A stretch of 55,080 nt of DNA from Candidatus Harrisonbacteria bacterium CG10_big_fil_rev_8_21_14_0_10_40_38 (GCA_002773535.1 PFAZ01000009.1:100739-155818); one strand, 5' to 3'. Shown: positions 32,443 to 36,706, counted from the stretch's first letter. Made by a program: numbers and translations. The notes: a model not told the origin generated them from the sequence alone.

Positions 32443-32988
32443 TTACCGTTTTGTTATCTGAATCGTCAAGCCCCTGCCGCCGAAGCGTGGTTCGCCAAGG
32501 ATATTGTGCTCAATGGTTATCATTTTGAGAAATTCTGACAGTTTTTGTTTTGCCCAGTCTTTATTGGCTTTTTCACGGCCTCTTAAAACCATCATTATGG
32601 TTACAGGGCGACCTTCTTCGAGGAATTCGTTGGCTTTTTTAGCCTTGAGTTCTAGGTCGTTTTTAGCGGATCTTATACTCACTTGTACCTGTTTGGCTTC
32701 AACGGTTTTCTGTTTAATTGCGTTTTGTTTTTGCCTTTTTTCTTCTTCGTAGCGGAATTTGTCAAAGCTGGTTATTTTTGCAACAGGTGGCTTTGCGGAG
32801 GCGGATATCTCAATTAAATCTAACCCTCGTTCTTTTGCGAGGGCTATTGCTTTGTCGCGATCCATTATGCCTAGATTCTCTCCTTTTTCGCTTAAAACTC
32901 TTACTTCGGGAGAATCTATGCGTTCGTTTATACGAGGCTGGATTCGCGGCTGGTAAAATCTTTTTTGTTTTTGATATCTTCTAGCCAA
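32443..32988 (-). CDS. infC: Translation initiation factor IF-3
   Basis: RINERI, GLDLIEI, PPVAKI, KFRYE, RGRE; TTG start. Confidence 0.96.
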   Translation of the reverse strand: MARRYQKQKRFYQPRIQPRINERIDSPEVRVLSEKGENLGIMDRDKAIALAKERGLDLIEISASAKPPVAKITSFDKFRYEEEKRQKQNAIKQKTVEAKQVQVSIRSAKNDLELKAKKANEFLEEGRPVTIMMVLRGREKANKDWAKQKLSEFLKMITIEHNILGEPRFGGRGLTIQITKR

Positions 32989-33015
32989 GGTTATGGGGAG
33001 TATAGCTTAGGAGGC

Positions 33016-33050
33016 GTAAAATGTAAAATGCGACATGAAATATGAAAATA
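33016..33050. repeat. Five degenerate heptamers upstream of infC
   Basis: GTAAAAT GTAAAAT GCGACAT GAAATAT GAAAATA. Confidence 0.55.
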
Positions 33051-33056
33051 AGGGTT

Positions 33057-34052
33057 TTATGCTTTTGGTTCGAGAGTTGTTGTATTTATAACTTTGTCTA
33101 TTTTTAAAATTCTGCCGAGAGATTCTATGTCTCCAACTTTTACAAATGTTGGGAGGCCAATGAGACACGAGCCGCGAAGGCGTACGGCTGCGCCACCAGA
33201 GTTTCCTTTTTCGATTTTTGCCGAAGTGACGTAATAGTCGTCTTCAATACTTGAGGTGATGCCTTCTGTTACCGTAACGTCGTTTGAGGAACCCGTGACC
33301 GGGTAGCCTAAGATGAGAATTTTATCTCCGACTTTTGAGGAGTTGGCAGGGCAGATGGACATTGTATTTGGGAGAGATGTGAATGGGTTTGATACTTGTT
33401 TTGTGGTGAGATAGGCAAAGTCATATGTTTTGTTTGATTTTGCGGTTATGACTTCGATGGGACTAGAGGATAGATTTGGTAGGTGAGCGGTACAGCTTGT
33501 GGCTGAATATTCTTGGTCTTCGATAACGTGACGGTTTGTAAAAATGCGTATAGCGTTTCCGGGGATAAGGTAACCGGAACCGGAACCTGTGCGAGTGATT
33601 TTTGATCCGGTGGCGTCATTTTCTAGAGAGCAGGAAACTTTGAACACGTATTTTTCCCACTCGGAGACGACTTGGGCGATATCTGGGTCGAGCGAGTTTT
33701 TTGTATCGGTGAGATTTTTTTCGAGGGATGAGATTTTTGACTGTTGGGTTTGAAACTCTTTATCTTTATCAGATAACTTAGTTTCTATTCCTGCGAGTCC
33801 TTCGTTTATTTTTGTTTGAGTTTCTTCACCTTCGATTTTCACTATGCCAAGTTCGCTTTCGAGAAGCTTCATGCTTTCACTTTGTTTAATAATCAATTCA
33901 TCACGAGTTTTTTCTCTGTCTAAAAGAGCGAGTGTTGTTTTGCGCTCGATTTTATTTGCGTGAATGATTGCAGAACCGCCGATAAGGAGGGAGAGAAGGG
34001 TGCCAAAAGTAAGAGTAGATGTGATTATGTGAATGAGGCGTGATTTTTTCAT
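33057..34052 (-). CDS. Membrane-anchored trypsin-like serine protease with coiled-coil stalk, no PDZ
   Basis: TNRHVI, YDFA, GNSGG triad. Likely start MKKSR at 34052. Confidence 0.88.
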   Translation of the reverse strand: MKKSRLIHIITSTLTFGTLLSLLIGGSAIIHANKIERKTTLALLDREKTRDELIIKQSESMKLLESELGIVKIEGEETQTKINEGLAGIETKLSDKDKEFQTQQSKISSLEKNLTDTKNSLDPDIAQVVSEWEKYVFKVSCSLENDATGSKITRTGSGSGYLIPGNAIRIFTNRHVIEDQEYSATSCTAHLPNLSSSPIEVITAKSNKTYDFAYLTTKQVSNPFTSLPNTMSICPANSSKVGDKILILGYPVTGSSNDVTVTEGITSSIEDDYYVTSAKIEKGNSGGAAVRLRGSCLIGLPTFVKVGDIESLGRILKIDKVINTTTLEPKA

Positions 34053-34104
34053 GAGTGTTTTAATTATAGACGAGTGAGGGGTTAATTTGTACAAATTTGT
34101 TTTA

Positions 34105-34141
34105 CATAGCAAATTTTGATGATCGTCAGGATTTGTTAGGT
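34105..34141. repeat. 37-bp direct repeat, copy 1
   Basis: CATAGCAAATTTTGATGATCGTCAGGATTTGTTAGGT, identical to 34628-34664. Confidence 0.97.
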
Positions 34142-34230
34142 TGGGTTTTAGATAAGTGAATATCCTTCGACTTCTTGTAGTCGCTTTTGGTATTTTTACT
34201 ATTTTATTTATTGTTTTTATTGTGGGTAAA

Positions 34231-34262
34231 AATAAAAAAAGCGCACGGGATTGTCCGTGCGC
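34231..34262 (-). terminator. Intrinsic terminator of the 76-aa gene
   Basis: GCGCACGG/CCGTGCGC stem followed by a T-tract on the minus strand. Confidence 0.8.
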
Positions 34263-34285
34263 GTGGGGTAGTGGGGTTTAGAAAT

Positions 34286-34516
34286 CTATGCTTCCATTAT
34301 TTTTCTGGCTTTATGTACCGTGGTTTGTGATATGTCTTTTTGTTCAAACATTTCCCCATGGAGAACCCAGAGAAGTACTTCATCGTGGTCGGCGTTGCGA
34401 CTCTTGTCTTTTGACATACCGGTTTCTATGTCGATGCCACGACTTTCGAGAAAGAGCGCGATTTCTCTATAGAGGTTTTTATATTCTTCTTCTTCGCTAA
34501 TCAGCCAACTTTCCAT
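34286..34516 (-). CDS. Orphan 76-aa acidic protein
   Basis: AAGGAG SD (34528-34533), own promoter and terminator. Confidence 0.75.
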   Translation of the reverse strand: MESWLISEEEEYKNLYREIALFLESRGIDIETGMSKDKSRNADHDEVLLWVLHGEMFEQKDISQTTVHKARKIMEA

Positions 34517-34562
34517 GATTTCTATTTCTCCTTTTTCTGTTGTGGGGTGAAGATGTTTTGTG

Positions 34563-34591
34563 ATGGTATAATTATTTTTTATTTATGTCAA
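34563..34591 (-). promoter_or_regulatory. Sigma70 promoter of the 76-aa gene
   Basis: TTGACA-N17-TACCAT. Confidence 0.75.
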
Positions 34592-34627
34592 ATGGGTGAG
34601 GTGGTTTGTGGGGGGTGTTAGTTTTCG

Positions 34628-34664
34628 CATAGCAAATTTTGATGATCGTCAGGATTTGTTAGGT
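34628..34664. repeat. 37-bp direct repeat, copy 2
   Basis: Identical to 34105-34141. Confidence 0.97.
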
Positions 34665-34764
34665 GAGGGTGGTCCTTCGGCGCAGCTTAGGGCCTCGCTT
34701 AGCTCGGGTTCGCATGCGGATATTTTAGCAGAAAACGCGGGGTGATTTGTGGGGTTATTTGTCA

Positions 34765-35040
34765 TCAAAATATGAGGTGCCTTTTTTTTATTAAAGCTAA
34801 AAATTGTTTTAACAATGCTAGGCCAGCACCAATCGAGGCAAAAATACCGATGAAAAGAGAAATTACTACCCATTTTCCAATTTCAAAATTCACCACTTGT
34901 TTAATAAGAATATGCCAGGAGACAATCCCGTTTGGTGCTACAAGGGTTTTCGGAGGAAGCTCAATTTTCTGCTCACCTTCTTTTAAAAGATAGGTGCATC
35001 CATCAAATTTATTCACTAAATCAATTGTTTCTCCAATTTT
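34765..35040 (-). CDS. Hypothetical protein with C-terminal TM helix; start uncertain, possibly a remnant
   Basis: Part of ORF 34765-35127 outside ssrA; WVVISLFIGIFASIGAGLALL. Confidence 0.45.
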   Translation of the reverse strand, partial: KIGETIDLVNKFDGCTYLLKEGEQKIELPPKTLVAPNGIVSWHILIKQVVNFEIGKWVVISLFIGIFASIGAGLALLKQFLALIKKRHLIF

Positions 35041-35060
35041 TAAATTTAAGTGTGTATGTA

Positions 35061-35080
35061 GCTCCGATGGTGATCGGAGC
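35061..35080 (-). terminator. Hairpin 3' of tmRNA
   Basis: GCTCCGAT-GGTG-ATCGGAGC; no clear U-tract. Confidence 0.5.
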
Positions 35081-35096
35081 ACTGAAATTTCTAGTG

Positions 35097-35444
35097 TGGA
35101 GATGGTGGGAGTTGCGCCCACGTACAAGAAGATTTTCCGGAAACGTCTACAAGCTTAGTTTTGCCTTGCGGCCAAACGAAGTGCATTCATTGGTTTTCGA
35201 CTATTCGTCGGCGGATGCGAACCCGAATAGCTTAGCTTCATTTATAACACCAGCGACCTTCTATGAAGCCTCAAAGACTGATGCCCTCCGAGGAGGGTGA
35301 ACTCTAGACTTTACGCAAAAGCGAAAGCTGGAGTCCTGCTAACATTTGTGTTGGCAGTTAAATTTTTTGAACCGGATTTACGAGACAGTTCACCTCGGCT
35401 TGCAATTTCACGGTTGATGCTCCTAGTCGAATCTCGGCATCCCC
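35097..35444 (-). ncRNA. ssrA: tmRNA (one-piece)
   Basis: 5' GGGGATG pairs with 3' CATCTCC-A (G3.U70); tag frame ANTNVSRTPAFAFA* at 35355-35311 after TAACT; immediately downstream of smpB. Confidence 0.95.
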
Positions 35445-35455
35445 ATGTATTTAAC

Positions 35456-35487
35456 CACTAGTAACTAGTCATTAGTTATTAGCACTA
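35456..35487. repeat. Heptamer repeat between smpB and ssrA
   Basis: CACTAGT AACTAGT CATTAGT TATTAGC. Confidence 0.6.
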
Positions 35488-35943
35488 GCGGCGACGAGTT
35501 GATTTTAATGTTCGGTCTATGTGGCGATCTGTGTCGCGCTTTTTTATTGTTTCGCGTTTGTCAGCTTTCTTTTTTGACTTTGCGAGCGCGATTTCGAGTT
35601 TTACAAGACCGCGCTTATTATACATCTTCGTTGGCACTATTGTCAATCTTTCTCCTGCCACTTTTTCAACTAAATATGCTATTTCTTTTGATTTCATGAG
35701 AAGGCGGCGGGTGCGTTTTTGGTCATAGTCTTTTGGGGTGTTATCTGCCTGATAGGGAGGGATGTCGGTGCCCGTGAGGAAGAGTTCTCCGTTTTCGGGG
35801 CGAACAAAAGAGCCTGCGAGGCCTGCGCGTCCTTTTTTTGCCGCTTTTACTTCGAAGCCTTTTAGTTCAATACCTGCTTCAAAAGTCTCTATAATATCGT
35901 AGTCAAAGCGAGCGCGTCTGTTTTCTGATAGAATTTCCATCAT
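35485..35943 (-). CDS. smpB: SsrA-binding protein
   Basis: NRRARFDY, AGIELKGFEVK, RTRRLL, KKADKRETIKKRD. Confidence 0.98.
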   Translation of the reverse strand: MMEILSENRRARFDYDIIETFEAGIELKGFEVKAAKKGRAGLAGSFVRPENGELFLTGTDIPPYQADNTPKDYDQKRTRRLLMKSKEIAYLVEKVAGERLTIVPTKMYNKRGLVKLEIALAKSKKKADKRETIKKRDTDRHIDRTLKSTRRR

Positions 35944-36001
35944 TATTATTATAGCGGTGTGGCTTCTCTAAATGCCAATACGCCGTTATACTCCATATAA
36001 A

Positions 36002-36706
36002 ATGCGTAATTCTTCAAAAGATAAGTTAAGGCTGTCGCCGTCGGCGTTAAATGTGTTTCTGGACTGTCAGAGGTGTTTTTGGCTCGAGTATGGGGCAGGG
36101 GTGCATAGGCCAAGAGGCCCGTTCCCTTCGCTTCCGAGCGGGATGGATATCCTTATTAAAAAATATTTTGATAGTTACAGGGCGGTTGGGAAATTGCCGC
36201 CAGAGATTGAGAGGCAGGTTTCGGGTTATCTTTTTTCGGATACGGAGTTACTTAATAAGTGGAGGAGTTGGAGGAGTGGGCTTTCGTACTATGACAGAGA
36301 TCTTGGTGCAGTCCTTGTTGGGGCGATTGACGACTGTCTTGTAGAAAATGAAAGATATATACCGATTGATTATAAGACGAGGGGATTTGATCTAGCTGAC
36401 GGGGGAGAAAGTTTTTATCAGAACCAGATGAATTGCTACTCATTTCTTTTAGATACTAACGGCATGAAGCAGCCTTCGTATGCGTATCTTGCGTATTTTA
36501 TTCCACGGGAAATAAAGAAAGGAGCTGATGTGAGGTTTTCGGTTCATGTTAAAAAATTAAATACTTTTCCAGAGGATGCGTTAAATACATTTCGAAAGGC
36601 GGTAAAATTATTAAGAAGCCCAATACCTAGTCATGATGATTCGTGTCAATTTTGTACGTGGAATTCAAAAGGGGTTAATAATCAGGGAGTGAAAACTAAG
36701 AGCTAA
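36002..36706 (+). CDS. PD-(D/E)XK nuclease, Cas4/RecB-like, standalone
   Basis: LSPSAL, CQRCFW, GAIDD, IDYKT, QMNCY, CQFC. Likely ATG 36002. Confidence 0.85.
   Translation: MRNSSKDKLRLSPSALNVFLDCQRCFWLEYGAGVHRPRGPFPSLPSGMDILIKKYFDSYRAVGKLPPEIERQVSGYLFSDTELLNKWRSWRSGLSYYDRDLGAVLVGAIDDCLVENERYIPIDYKTRGFDLADGGESFYQNQMNCYSFLLDTNGMKQPSYAYLAYFIPREIKKGADVRFSVHVKKLNTFPEDALNTFRKAVKLLRSPIPSHDDSCQFCTWNSKGVNNQGVKTKS

What the first reader, a model, noticed from the sequence alone, without database searches (positions are those of the whole stretch)
34105..34664. Identical 37-bp hairpin repeats with attC-like features delimit a 523-bp cassette 3' of tmRNA
Exact copies lie at 34105-34141 and 34628-34664. 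On the gene strand each begins ACCTAAC, a perfect RYYYAAC inverse core, and ends GCTATG(T/C) where attC has GTTRRRY. The opposite strand folds into a 13-bp stem (TAGCAAATTTTGA/TCAGGATTTGTTA) using three G.T pairs, which become A.C mismatches on the gene strand; attC has the same bottom-strand bias. The layout ssrA - ORF - repeat - ORF - repeat - protease resembles a small cassette array at a known integration hotspot. Caveats: much shorter than known attC, GCT instead of GTT, and no recombinase in the window. It may be a new minimal recombination site or a relic target duplication.
Basis: partly seen in the sequence, partly recalled or inferred. Interest (0 to 1): 0.8.

Follow-up and report, generated by a model that had tools for sequence, protein, structure and literature searches.

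The report
Orphan palindromes of a mini-PaaX family
The two identical 37-base repeats are real but are not integron attC sites: they are two degenerate copies of an 11-member family of CGATCG-centred palindromes that lie between genes in this ultra-small (CPR) bacterium and also bracket the gene of a small PaaX-like DNA-binding protein, their most likely partner.

Summary
Observation confirmed. Exact 37-mers lie at 34105-34141 and 34628-34664. They bracket a self-contained unit (promoter, 76-aa ORFan, terminator) between ssrA and a trypsin-like protease.

The attC/integron reading fails. The sites are too short, have no extrahelical bases, and have a conserved rather than variable centre. The cassette has its own promoter and terminator. 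The genome's IntI-like recombinase lacks the IntI-specific insertion.

The repeats belong to a family of 11 palindromes of 32-40 bp in this 760-kb genome, with none in a reversed-genome control. Consensus: ACC-TARCAnnTTTTGACGATCGTCAAAAnnTGYTA-GGT. Two copies bracket the genome's only mini-PaaX gene (winged helix plus Cas2-like PaaX_M domain). Homologues of that gene in other CPR genomes are likewise bracketed by CGATCG-centred palindromes with lineage-specific arms.

The apparent G.T wobble comes from unlike arms. The left arm is the local type. The right arm is identical to the arm used in another CPR genome.

Best reading (about 0.6): double-stranded binding sites of the mini-PaaX dimer, copied locally. 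Arm-to-arm covariation, hybrid arms and four gene-bracketing pairs (P about 3e-5) leave a REP-like or recombination role open.

The parts
34105..34141 (.). Repeat copy 1. The palindrome core is 34107-34138, TAGCAAATTTTGA-TGATCG-TCAGGATTTGTTA. It lies 54 nt upstream of the protease start and 148 nt downstream of the ORF76 stop.
   Evidence: Exact match. Family score 21 of 22. Fold results.
34628..34664 (.). Repeat copy 2, identical to copy 1. The core is 34630-34661. It lies 113 nt upstream of the ORF76 start, beyond the ORF76 promoter, and about 100 nt downstream of the ORF118/120 stop.
34563..34591 (-). Sigma-70-type promoter of ORF76, TTGACA-17-TACCAT. It lies between repeat 2 and ORF76.
   Evidence: 10 of 12 matches.
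34286..34516 (-). ORF76, an acidic 76-aa ORFan with an AGGAG ribosome-binding site. No Pfam or NCBIfam family matches it, and it has no homologue among 5.8 billion proteins apart from itself.
34241..34262 (-). Intrinsic terminator of ORF76: an 8-bp stem with 7 G-C pairs, followed by TTTTTTT. It lies between ORF76 and repeat 1.
33057..34052 (-). Membrane-anchored trypsin-like serine protease (331 aa), the gene downstream of repeat 1.
   Evidence: Pfam PF13365 at 2.4e-14. Closest homologues are at most 38% identical.
34765..35121 (-). ORF of about 118-120 aa with a C-terminal hydrophobic segment and no family match. Its 5' end overlaps the tmRNA 3' end, so the true start may lie further downstream.
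35094..35444 (-). tmRNA (ssrA).
   Evidence: Rfam RF00023, 117 bits. ARAGORN missed it.
32443..32988 (-). infC, the far border of the variable ssrA-infC gap.

Best explanation
The two 37-nt repeats are orphan, slightly degenerate copies of this genome's family of CGATCG-centred palindromes of 32-40 bp. There are 11 copies, all intergenic. The family is tied to the genome's single mini-PaaX protein, which combines a winged helix with a PaaX_M/Cas2-like domain. It is encoded on another contig (G000:C15:221769-222302), and its gene is itself bracketed by two family copies.

The most likely mechanism is binding on double-stranded DNA. A mini-PaaX dimer sits on the dyad. Each winged helix reads one outer arm (TARCAnnT), and the invariant CGATCG lies at the centre. 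At its own gene the upstream palindrome coincides with a promoter (TTAACA-16-TAAAAT), which implies autorepression. At orphan sites such as these two, the bound protein would modulate or insulate neighbouring transcription units, here the protease gene and ORF76.

The two window copies are identical because one was copied from the other recently, by local duplication or short-tract conversion. Their four G.T mismatches arise because the left arm is the local type and the right arm is a TAACAAATCCTGA type. No strand-specific hairpin needs to be invoked.

Shown: family membership, the link to mini-PaaX loci across genomes, arm covariation, and the positions relative to the promoter and terminator. 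Inferred: protein binding, any regulatory effect, and the mode of copying.
For: Family size: 11 sites score at least 18 of 22 against the degenerate consensus, and a reversed genome gives 0. A stricter pattern gives 5-8 own-genome hits with 0 control hits.

Link to the protein: sites at C15:221691 and C15:222384 bracket the only mini-PaaX gene. Pfam gives PF20803 PaaX_M at 1.3e-14 plus weak winged-helix hits.

Same architecture elsewhere: it occurs in a distant genome where the protein is 42% identical and the arms are nearly the same (L010/L005). In 9 of 12 mini-PaaX loci from other genomes, CGATCG-centred palindromes with different, lineage-specific arms lie next to the gene, and in six of them they lie on both sides.

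Autoregulation: the upstream palindrome of mini-PaaX reads TTAACA-16-TAAAAT, 10 of 12 matches to a promoter.

DNA-level role: both window copies lie outside the ORF76 transcription unit, upstream of its promoter and downstream of its terminator. This argues for a DNA-level role over an mRNA-level one. The gene-strand hairpin is negligible at -3.6 kcal/mol.

Hybrid arms: the right arm TCAGGATTTGTTA equals the arm of the perfect palindrome TAACAAATCCTGACGATCGTCAGGATTTGTTA found in other CPR contigs. The left arm equals the local perfect type apart from one C>T change.

Earlier notes of this scan reached the same general reading on other windows. They are leads, not independent evidence.
Against: No binding data exist.

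The genes next to the 11 sites form no coherent regulon: protease, ORFan, msrA, pheS, uppP, M16 peptidase, a DUF218 module and a tRNA.

Distances from site to start codon vary from about 30 to more than 140 nt. The window copies sit upstream of the -35 region, which is not a classical repressor position.

A single protein does not explain why copies within one genome are individually perfect palindromes that differ from each other. Arm covariation shows 94% paired cells, 8 of 14 pairs with changes on both sides, and 0 of 500 shuffles as high.

It also does not explain why a palindrome sits downstream of the regulator gene in six of the 12 loci from other genomes, or why 8 of the 11 sites form four gene-bracketing pairs (P about 3e-5).

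These features point to structure-dependent or copying processes acting in addition to binding.
Confidence: 0.6

Rival explanations
1. The palindromes are site-specific recombination sites with a 13-6-13 layout like lox or dif. They would be used by one of the two Xer-like tyrosine recombinases or by the Cas2-fold domain of mini-PaaX. Genes bracketed by two copies (ORF76, msrA, the DUF218 module, mini-PaaX itself) would then be insertable and excisable modules. That would be a minimal system analogous to integrons or pdif modules, but not an integron.
For: The architecture is two 13-bp arms around a 6-bp centre.

Hybrid sites combine arms of different types, joined at the centre. This occurs here and three times in G401 (CCTGAC|GATC|GGCGAT, in both orientations).

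There are four bracketing pairs (P about 3e-5).

The ssrA-infC gap is variable among relatives.

The two window copies are in direct orientation.

In L010 a 105-nt direct repeat that includes two palindromes flanks the mini-PaaX gene.

Two Xer-like recombinases are encoded, one of them IntI-like by score.
Against: No empty site, inversion or alternative junction appears in five assemblies of the species, which are all 100% identical over 2.5 kb.

The palindromic centre gives no directionality.

No recombinase is adjacent to any site.

The gap's other genes (ORF118/120 and the protease) are not delimited by palindromes at the ssrA and infC borders.

Hybrid arms can also arise by a few transitions.

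The G401 copies are embedded in dispersed repeats of at least 92 nt and in a 161-bp tandem duplication, so ordinary duplication explains them.
Confidence: 0.15
2. The palindromes are REP/REPIN-like selfish or structural elements. They would spread as units into intergenic DNA and be kept symmetric by hairpin or cruciform formation, through templated correction of quasi-palindromes. Mini-PaaX would be the partner that maintains or disperses them, by analogy with RAYT. They would have no gene-specific regulatory role.
For: All 11 copies are intergenic. Nine of the ten copies with a defined upstream gene lie within about 115 nt of its stop; repeat 1 lies 148 nt from the ORF76 stop.

Arm covariation is strong.

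Identical copies carry identical defects, both in the window and in G401.

The partner gene is flanked by its own repeats, as in REPtrons.

Distribution is patchy: this arm type occurs in 3 of 401 genomes of the order.

The neighbouring genes are incoherent as a regulon.
Against: Copy number is low (11).

No HUH/Y1 transposase flanks the repeats. The only IS200-like fragment (C15:216510-216824) is 1.7 kb from the nearest site.

No in-gene insertions or target-site duplications are seen in this genome.

This reading overlaps the best explanation more than it excludes it.
Confidence: 0.17
3. They are genuine integron attC sites that delimit a cassette, recombined as folded bottom strands by an integron integrase.
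For: The - strand begins ACCTAAC, which fits RYYYAAC. The + strand ends GTTAGGT, which fits GTTRRRY. Perfect family members carry both boxes. G.T pairs are confined to one strand. The + strand has positive GC skew locally, so it may be the lagging-strand template (weak).
Against: The sites are 37 bp, against 57-141 bp for known attC sites (figure from my own knowledge).

The stem is continuous, with no extrahelical bases or unpaired central spacer.

Most family members are perfect palindromes, so there is no strand choice.

The centre is conserved while the arms vary across genomes, the reverse of attC.

The cassette has its own promoter and terminator.

There is no array and no attI.

The IntI-like protein scores 209 bits, below the cutoff of 265. 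It aligns to VchIntIA (2a3v) in two pieces that skip the IntI-specific segment at about residues 211-241.
Confidence: 0.02
4. They act as RNA hairpins, either as intrinsic terminators or 3'-end stabilisers of upstream genes, or as an antisense small RNA from the + strand.
For: The + strand RNA hairpin is stable (-13.4 and -19.2 kcal/mol). Some other family copies are followed by T-runs on the gene strand and are flagged as terminator-like.
Against: On the gene strand the window copies fold at only -3.6 and -4.2 kcal/mol and have no T-run. ORF76 already has a canonical terminator upstream of copy 1. No + strand gene or promoter feeds the hairpins. Rfam finds nothing there. Only 3-4 of the 11 copies have a nearby T-run.
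Confidence: 0.04

Closest known systems
PaaX repressor and its operator (E. coli / Pseudomonas; Pfam PF07848 + PF20803 + PF08223)
   Same: The partner protein has a winged-helix N-terminus followed by the PaaX central Cas2-like domain (PF20803, 1.3e-14). It is associated with dyad-symmetric DNA sites, and one of these overlaps its own promoter.
   Different: The protein has about 178 aa and no PaaX_C domain. It scores 19 bits against the TIGR02277 cutoff of 265. Its sites are near-perfect palindromes of 32-44 bp centred on CGATCG. They are dispersed (11 copies) and lie on both sides of the gene. No phenylacetate genes are involved.
REP/REPIN-RAYT systems (REPtrons) of Proteobacteria
   Same: Dispersed intergenic palindromes show compensatory arm changes, the gene of the presumed partner protein is flanked by its own repeats, and each lineage has its own repeat type.
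   Different: The partner is not an HUH/Y1 transposase. Copy number is low. The repeats are perfect palindromes with a conserved centre, whereas REPs have a conserved 5' GTAG. Mobility is not shown.
Integron attC sites / CALIN cassette arrays
   Same: The sites are palindromic, their ends match RYYYAAC/GTTRRRY, and they bracket a single small ORF in a variable region.
   Different: See the membership test. Length, extrahelical bases, variable centre, promoterless cassettes, arrays and a true IntI are all lacking.
Xer sites: dif, and pdif modules of Acinetobacter plasmids
   Same: Two protein-binding arms surround a 6-bp centre, gene modules are bracketed by such sites, and Xer-like recombinases are present in the genome.
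   Different: There is no sequence similarity to dif. The arms are 13 bp rather than 11 bp. The centre is palindromic. The sites are chromosomal and dispersed. Recombination is untested.
HIP1 (GCGATCGC) highly iterated palindrome of cyanobacteria
   Same: It shares the CGATCG core.
   Different: HIP1 is an 8-mer present in thousands of copies, including inside genes. Here the core sits in 32-40-bp palindromes with 11 copies. CGATCG itself is not over-represented: 78 observed against about 107 expected from base composition (my calculation).

Membership tests
Integron attC site | R'' (RYYYAAC) and R' (GTTRRRY) core boxes at the two ends | tested here: inconclusive
   In the window copies only one box per reading direction fits: ACCTAAC on the - strand, which is GTTAGGT on the + strand. 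The other end reads GCTATG(T/C). Three perfect family copies carry both boxes. In other genomes the arms lack AAC/GTT altogether.
Integron attC site | Length of about 57-141 bp, with a variable central region (VTS) between conserved L/R boxes | tested here: not met
   The sites are 32-40 bp. The centre CGATCG is the most conserved part and the inner arms are the variable part.
Integron attC site | Extrahelical bases and an unpaired central spacer on the folded bottom strand, which give strand selectivity | tested here: not met
   The stem is a continuous 14 bp with only G.T wobbles. Five of the 11 family copies are perfect palindromes.
Integron attC site | Integron integrase carrying the IntI-specific additional domain in the genome | tested here: not met
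   Two tyrosine recombinases are encoded. The better match to TIGR02249 scores 209 bits, below the cutoff of 265. It aligns to VchIntIA (2a3v) in two pieces that omit about residues 211-241.
Integron attC site | Promoterless cassettes in a contiguous array next to attI/Pc | tested here: not met
   ORF76 has its own promoter and terminator inside the bracket. A single ORF is bracketed. There are no palindromes at the ssrA or infC borders.
CGATCG-centred palindrome family associated with mini-PaaX (CPR) | Dyad-symmetric site of 30-48 bp centred on CGATCG whose arms match the genome's own family | tested here: met
   The window copies score 21 of 22 against the family consensus. Their centre is TGATCG, one C>T change. 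Four arm positions are unlike between the two arms.
CGATCG-centred palindrome family associated with mini-PaaX (CPR) | A mini-PaaX gene (winged helix + PaaX_M) in the same genome is bracketed by copies of the same family | tested here: met
   Sites at C15:221691 and C15:222384 flank the gene at C15:221769-222302. The same arrangement occurs in other genomes.
CGATCG-centred palindrome family associated with mini-PaaX (CPR) | The sites are physically bound by the protein | not testable with these tools
   This needs EMSA, footprinting or DAP-seq.
REP/RAYT (REPtron) | An HUH/Y1 (IS200-like) RAYT gene flanked by inverted REPs | tested here: not met
   The only IS200-like fragment (C15:216510-216824) is not flanked by the palindromes. 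The flanked gene is mini-PaaX.
Rho-independent terminator | A G+C-rich stem directly followed by a U-run on the transcribed strand | tested here: not met
   Neither window copy has a T-run on the - strand, and the - strand hairpin is only -3.6 and -4.2 kcal/mol. The real terminator of ORF76 is at 34241-34262.
ssrA-targeted genomic island | A direct repeat of the ssrA 3' end at the distal border, and an integrase next to ssrA | tested here: not met
   The last 21 nt of tmRNA occur once in the window at up to 3 mismatches. There is no integrase in the window.

The most novel reading that the evidence does not exclude
CPR bacteria may possess a minimal, integrase-independent or Xer-dependent cassette system. 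In this reading, the 32-40-bp CGATCG-centred palindromes are cut or exchanged at their centre, either by the Cas2-fold domain of mini-PaaX or by the truncated IntI-like/Xer recombinases. Single genes bracketed by two copies (here ORF76, and elsewhere in this genome msrA, the DUF218 module and mini-PaaX itself) would be inserted into and excised from variable gaps such as ssrA-infC. The hybrid-arm sites would be the recombination products.
Probability: 0.12. Interest if true: 0.85.

Novelty: new variant of a known kind. Interest (0 to 1): 0.55.

Why it matters
Almost nothing is known about gene regulation or genome plasticity in Patescibacteria (CPR). This finding links an anonymous repeat next to ssrA to a concrete protein-DNA pair that can be tested: one small winged-helix/Cas2-fold protein and 11 defined sites in a 760-kb genome.

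If the sites are operators, they give a rare handle on a CPR regulon. If they are copied or recombined, they would be a new type of palindrome-handling system built on the Cas2 fold, and a possible route by which accessory genes enter variable gaps.

The result also shows that attC-like end motifs can arise by coincidence in unrelated palindromes. This is relevant to integron and CALIN surveys of metagenomes.

The two literature searches I ran returned no paper that describes the system.

Tried and rejected
1. attC/integron: rejected on the membership test.
2. Classic ssrA island: there is no duplicate of the ssrA 3' end and no integrase.
3. Terminator or small RNA: no T-run, a weak gene-strand hairpin, and no Rfam hit.
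4. Longer segmental duplication: homology stops within about 42 nt.
5. Exact or 3-mismatch copies in 60 relatives: none. This arm type occurs in only 3 of 401 genomes of the order and in none of 11 same-family genomes.
6. Viral contigs: no match.
7. ORF76 homologues: none. Pfam and NCBIfam: nothing for ORF76 or ORF118/120.
8. Strain-level presence or absence: five assemblies of the species are 100% identical over 33000-35500. The nearest protease homologue is 38% identical, so no sister species is available.
10. CGATCG palindromes in the ssrA-infC gaps of relatives: none found.
11. Replication-strand argument from GC skew: the + strand skew is positive, but this is too weak to use either way.
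12. Literature: two full-text searches returned no paper that describes this pairing.

Full report
OBSERVATION

The 37-mer CATAGCAAATTTTGATGATCGTCAGGATTTGTTAGGT occurs exactly twice in the window, at 34105-34141 and 34628-34664. Both copies are on the + strand, and 100 shuffles gave no match. Similarity reaches 42 nt at 95% and does not extend further. So the repeated unit is the element itself and not a longer duplicated segment.

All genes here are on the - strand:
- smpB, 35943-35485
- tmRNA, 35444-35094 (Rfam 117 bits; ARAGORN missed it)
- an ORF of about 118 aa
- repeat 2
- ORF76, 34516-34286
- repeat 1
- a membrane-anchored trypsin-like protease, 34052-33057 (PF13365)
- infC, rpmI, rplT

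So is the + strand stem with G.T pairs. As RNA the + strand folds at -13.4 and -19.2 kcal/mol, against -3.6 and -4.2 for the - strand. As ssDNA the values are -5.1 against -2.5.

ORF76 is a complete transcription unit inside the bracket. It has the promoter TTGACA-17-TACCAT at 34591-34563, an AGGAG ribosome-binding site, and a G+C-rich terminator with T7 at 34262-34241. Both repeats therefore lie outside that unit.

WHAT THE REPEATS BELONG TO

The core is an imperfect palindrome, TAGCAAATTTTGA-TGATCG-TCAGGATTTGTTA. I searched a self-complementary degenerate version of it, TARCAAATYYTGAYGATCRTCARRATTTGYTA. This found perfect 32-bp palindromes in other CPR contigs. Variant A is TAACAAATCCTGACGATCGTCAGGATTTGTTA. 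It occurs in a MAG labelled Saccharibacteria and in several metagenome contigs. Variant B is TAGCAAATTTTGACGATCGTCAAAATTTGCTA. The variant B contigs proved identical to other parts of the window's own genome.

The window copies are hybrids. Their left arm is variant B with one C>T change, and their right arm is variant A. All four arm differences are transitions, which is why they appear as G.T on one strand and A.C on the other. Other imperfect family copies show transversions or the opposite bias. The strand-specific wobble is therefore not a family property.

In the whole 760-kb genome, a position-wise scan finds 11 sites and none in the reversed genome:
- C12:134845 and C12:135368 (this finding)
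- C15:127807 and C15:129254
- C15:201859
- C15:214003 and C15:214772
- C15:221691 and C15:222384
- C15:263948
- C15:329979

The extended consensus is (t/c)ACC-TARCAnnTTTTGACGATCGTCAAAAnnTGYTA-GGT(a/g). All sites are intergenic. They lie 31-148 nt after an upstream stop codon and about 30 to more than 140 nt before a downstream start codon. Compared with the perfect copies (ssDNA -13.5 to -16.1 kcal/mol), the window copies are the weakest hairpins of the family.

THE PARTNER PROTEIN

In contig L010, variant A palindromes lie on both sides of a 201-aa gene, together with a second type, TAACAAATCTCGCCGATCGGCGAGATTTGTTA. The window's genome has one homologue of that gene, 42% identical, at C15:221769-222302. 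It is also bracketed by family copies, at 221691 and 222384.

Both proteins combine weak winged-helix matches with the PaaX central Cas2-like domain (PF20803, about 1e-14). They fall far below the PaaX equivalog cutoff. I call them mini-PaaX.

I looked at 12 mini-PaaX loci from other genomes of the family and order. In nine of them, palindromes centred on CGATCG but with quite different arms lie beside the gene. In six (G003, G005, G006, G015, G014, G401) they lie on both sides. The alignment shows a conserved SRLKKQGLI helix and an invariant FDIPE...LQKSVW block. The palindrome upstream of the own-genome mini-PaaX reads TTAACA-16-TAAAAT on the gene strand (10 of 12 matches). There, site and promoter coincide, which is the usual layout of an autorepressor.

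I had reached this reading before consulting earlier notes of the scan. Those notes report the same module in many CPR genomes, and in this genome for the C15 palindromes and the DUF218 module. I treat them as leads. I re-tested the bracketing and the same-genome sites myself.

FEATURES A PLAIN OPERATOR DOES NOT EXPLAIN

- Across 18 distinct sites the two arms covary. 94% of cells are paired, 8 of 14 pairs change on both sides, and 0 of 500 shuffles reach the observed covariation. Slid controls give 31-51% paired. Within this one genome, which has one mini-PaaX, perfect palindromes of types CAAATT, CAATTT and CAGTTT coexist. Templated correction of quasi-palindromes by intra-strand template switching is established in E. 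coli (my own knowledge). It could produce this without any special enzyme, but it requires the DNA to fold.
- Hybrid sites exist. G401 has three copies of CCTGAC|GATC|GGCGAT in both orientations. However, those copies sit in dispersed repeats of at least 92 nt and in a 161-bp tandem duplication.
- Eight of the 11 sites form four neighbour pairs within 1.5 kb. They bracket ORF76, msrA, a three-gene DUF218 module and mini-PaaX. Random placement gives four or more such pairs with P about 3e-5.
- The neighbouring genes do not form an obvious regulon.

TESTS OF THE attC/INTEGRON READING

Some perfect family members do read ACCTAAC...GTTAGGT, which matches both attC core consensus boxes. Every other criterion fails:
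- The sites are 32-40 bp.
- The stems are continuous, with no extrahelical bases.
- The centre is conserved and the inner arms are variable.
- The arms lack AAC/GTT in other lineages.
- The cassette carries its own promoter and terminator.
- There is no array.

The genome encodes two tyrosine recombinases. One scores best against the integron-integrase model, but at 209 bits it is below the cutoff of 265. It aligns to VchIntIA (2a3v) in two pieces that skip about residues 211-241, the IntI-specific segment. The other is XerC/D-like. Neither is next to a palindrome. The ssrA 3' end is not duplicated, so there is no classic ssrA island.

IS THE BRACKETED UNIT AN INSERTION?

The synteny argS-(PD-(D/E)XK)-smpB-ssrA-[gap]-infC-rpmI-rplT holds across the family. 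The gap ranges from about 0.37 kb (G008) to about 4.1 kb (G005). It holds unrelated genes and no CGATCG palindromes in the relatives. So the gap is a variable region, but these comparisons are at genus level.

ORF76 has no homologue anywhere. Five independent assemblies of the species are 100% identical across 33000-35500. The nearest protease homologue is 38% identical, so no informative sister genome exists. Empty-site and circle junctions could therefore not be sought in reads. GC content of the bracketed segment (0.39) is not anomalous.

VERDICT

The most likely mechanism is that these are double-stranded binding sites of the mini-PaaX dimer, copied locally. Any effect on the flanking protease and ORF76 units is inferred and not shown (confidence about 0.6).

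A REP-like structural or selfish role (0.17) and a recombination-site role (0.15) remain open, and partly overlap with the best explanation. Genuine attC identity (0.02) and an RNA-level role (0.04) are unlikely.

In the literature library searched, no paper describes this pairing. I rate it a new variant of known kinds (regulator-operator and REP-like repeats). This window shows it as orphan copies bracketing an ORFan in the variable gap downstream of ssrA.

Noticed in passing
window 35094-35444 (-): ARAGORN does not report the tmRNA that Rfam finds at 117 bits. The ORF of about 118-120 aa downstream overlaps its 3' end by about 30 nt, so the true start of that ORF is probably later.
   Followed up: partly
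window 32988-35094, compared with L043-L049: The ssrA-infC gap is a variable region in this family. It ranges from about 0.37 kb with no gene (G008) to about 4.1 kb (G005). In the relatives it holds phosphoribosyltransferase-like and small Cys-rich ORFs, none related to the window's three genes.
   Followed up: partly
G000:C15:206887-207705 (outside the window): A tyrosine recombinase whose best matches are integron integrases (TIGR02249, 209 bits; PDB 2a3v), but which lacks the IntI-specific insertion. It lies within a 21-kb stretch that holds five of the 11 palindromes, a LexA-like gene (215689-216360) and an IS200-like TnpA fragment (216510-216824).
   Followed up: partly
G000:C15:222384-222415 (L023 2116-2147): The imperfect palindrome upstream of the mini-PaaX gene reads TTAACA-16-TAAAAT on the gene strand. 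Its two deviations from perfect symmetry create the better -10 box.
   Followed up: partly
L053 2091-2283 and L054 1892-1923 (G401:C1): Hybrid-arm palindromes sit inside a dispersed repeat of at least 92 nt that is present in both orientations, and inside a 161-bp tandem duplication. In L010 (760-900) and L006 (6218-6700) the palindromes adjoin long low-complexity tandem repeats.
   Followed up: no
L007 2657-2688 (also L008, L009, L015): In another organism, a perfect variant A palindrome starts 2 nt after the encoded CCA end of a tRNA gene.
   Followed up: no
window 34704-34718 versus 35212-35226: A 15-nt inverted match (93%) links the G+C-rich spacer beside repeat 2 to a region inside the tmRNA that looks, by eye, like its tag-coding part. 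It may be chance.
   Followed up: no
window 35972-36706 (+): A PD-(D/E)XK nuclease gene (PF12705) lies between smpB and argS. It is conserved at this position in several but not all family members.
   Followed up: no
G000:C15:201215-202640: A 1.4-kb stretch between aspS and fusA has no ORF of at least 70 aa and holds one perfect palindrome (201859). It may carry an unannotated RNA gene.
   Followed up: no
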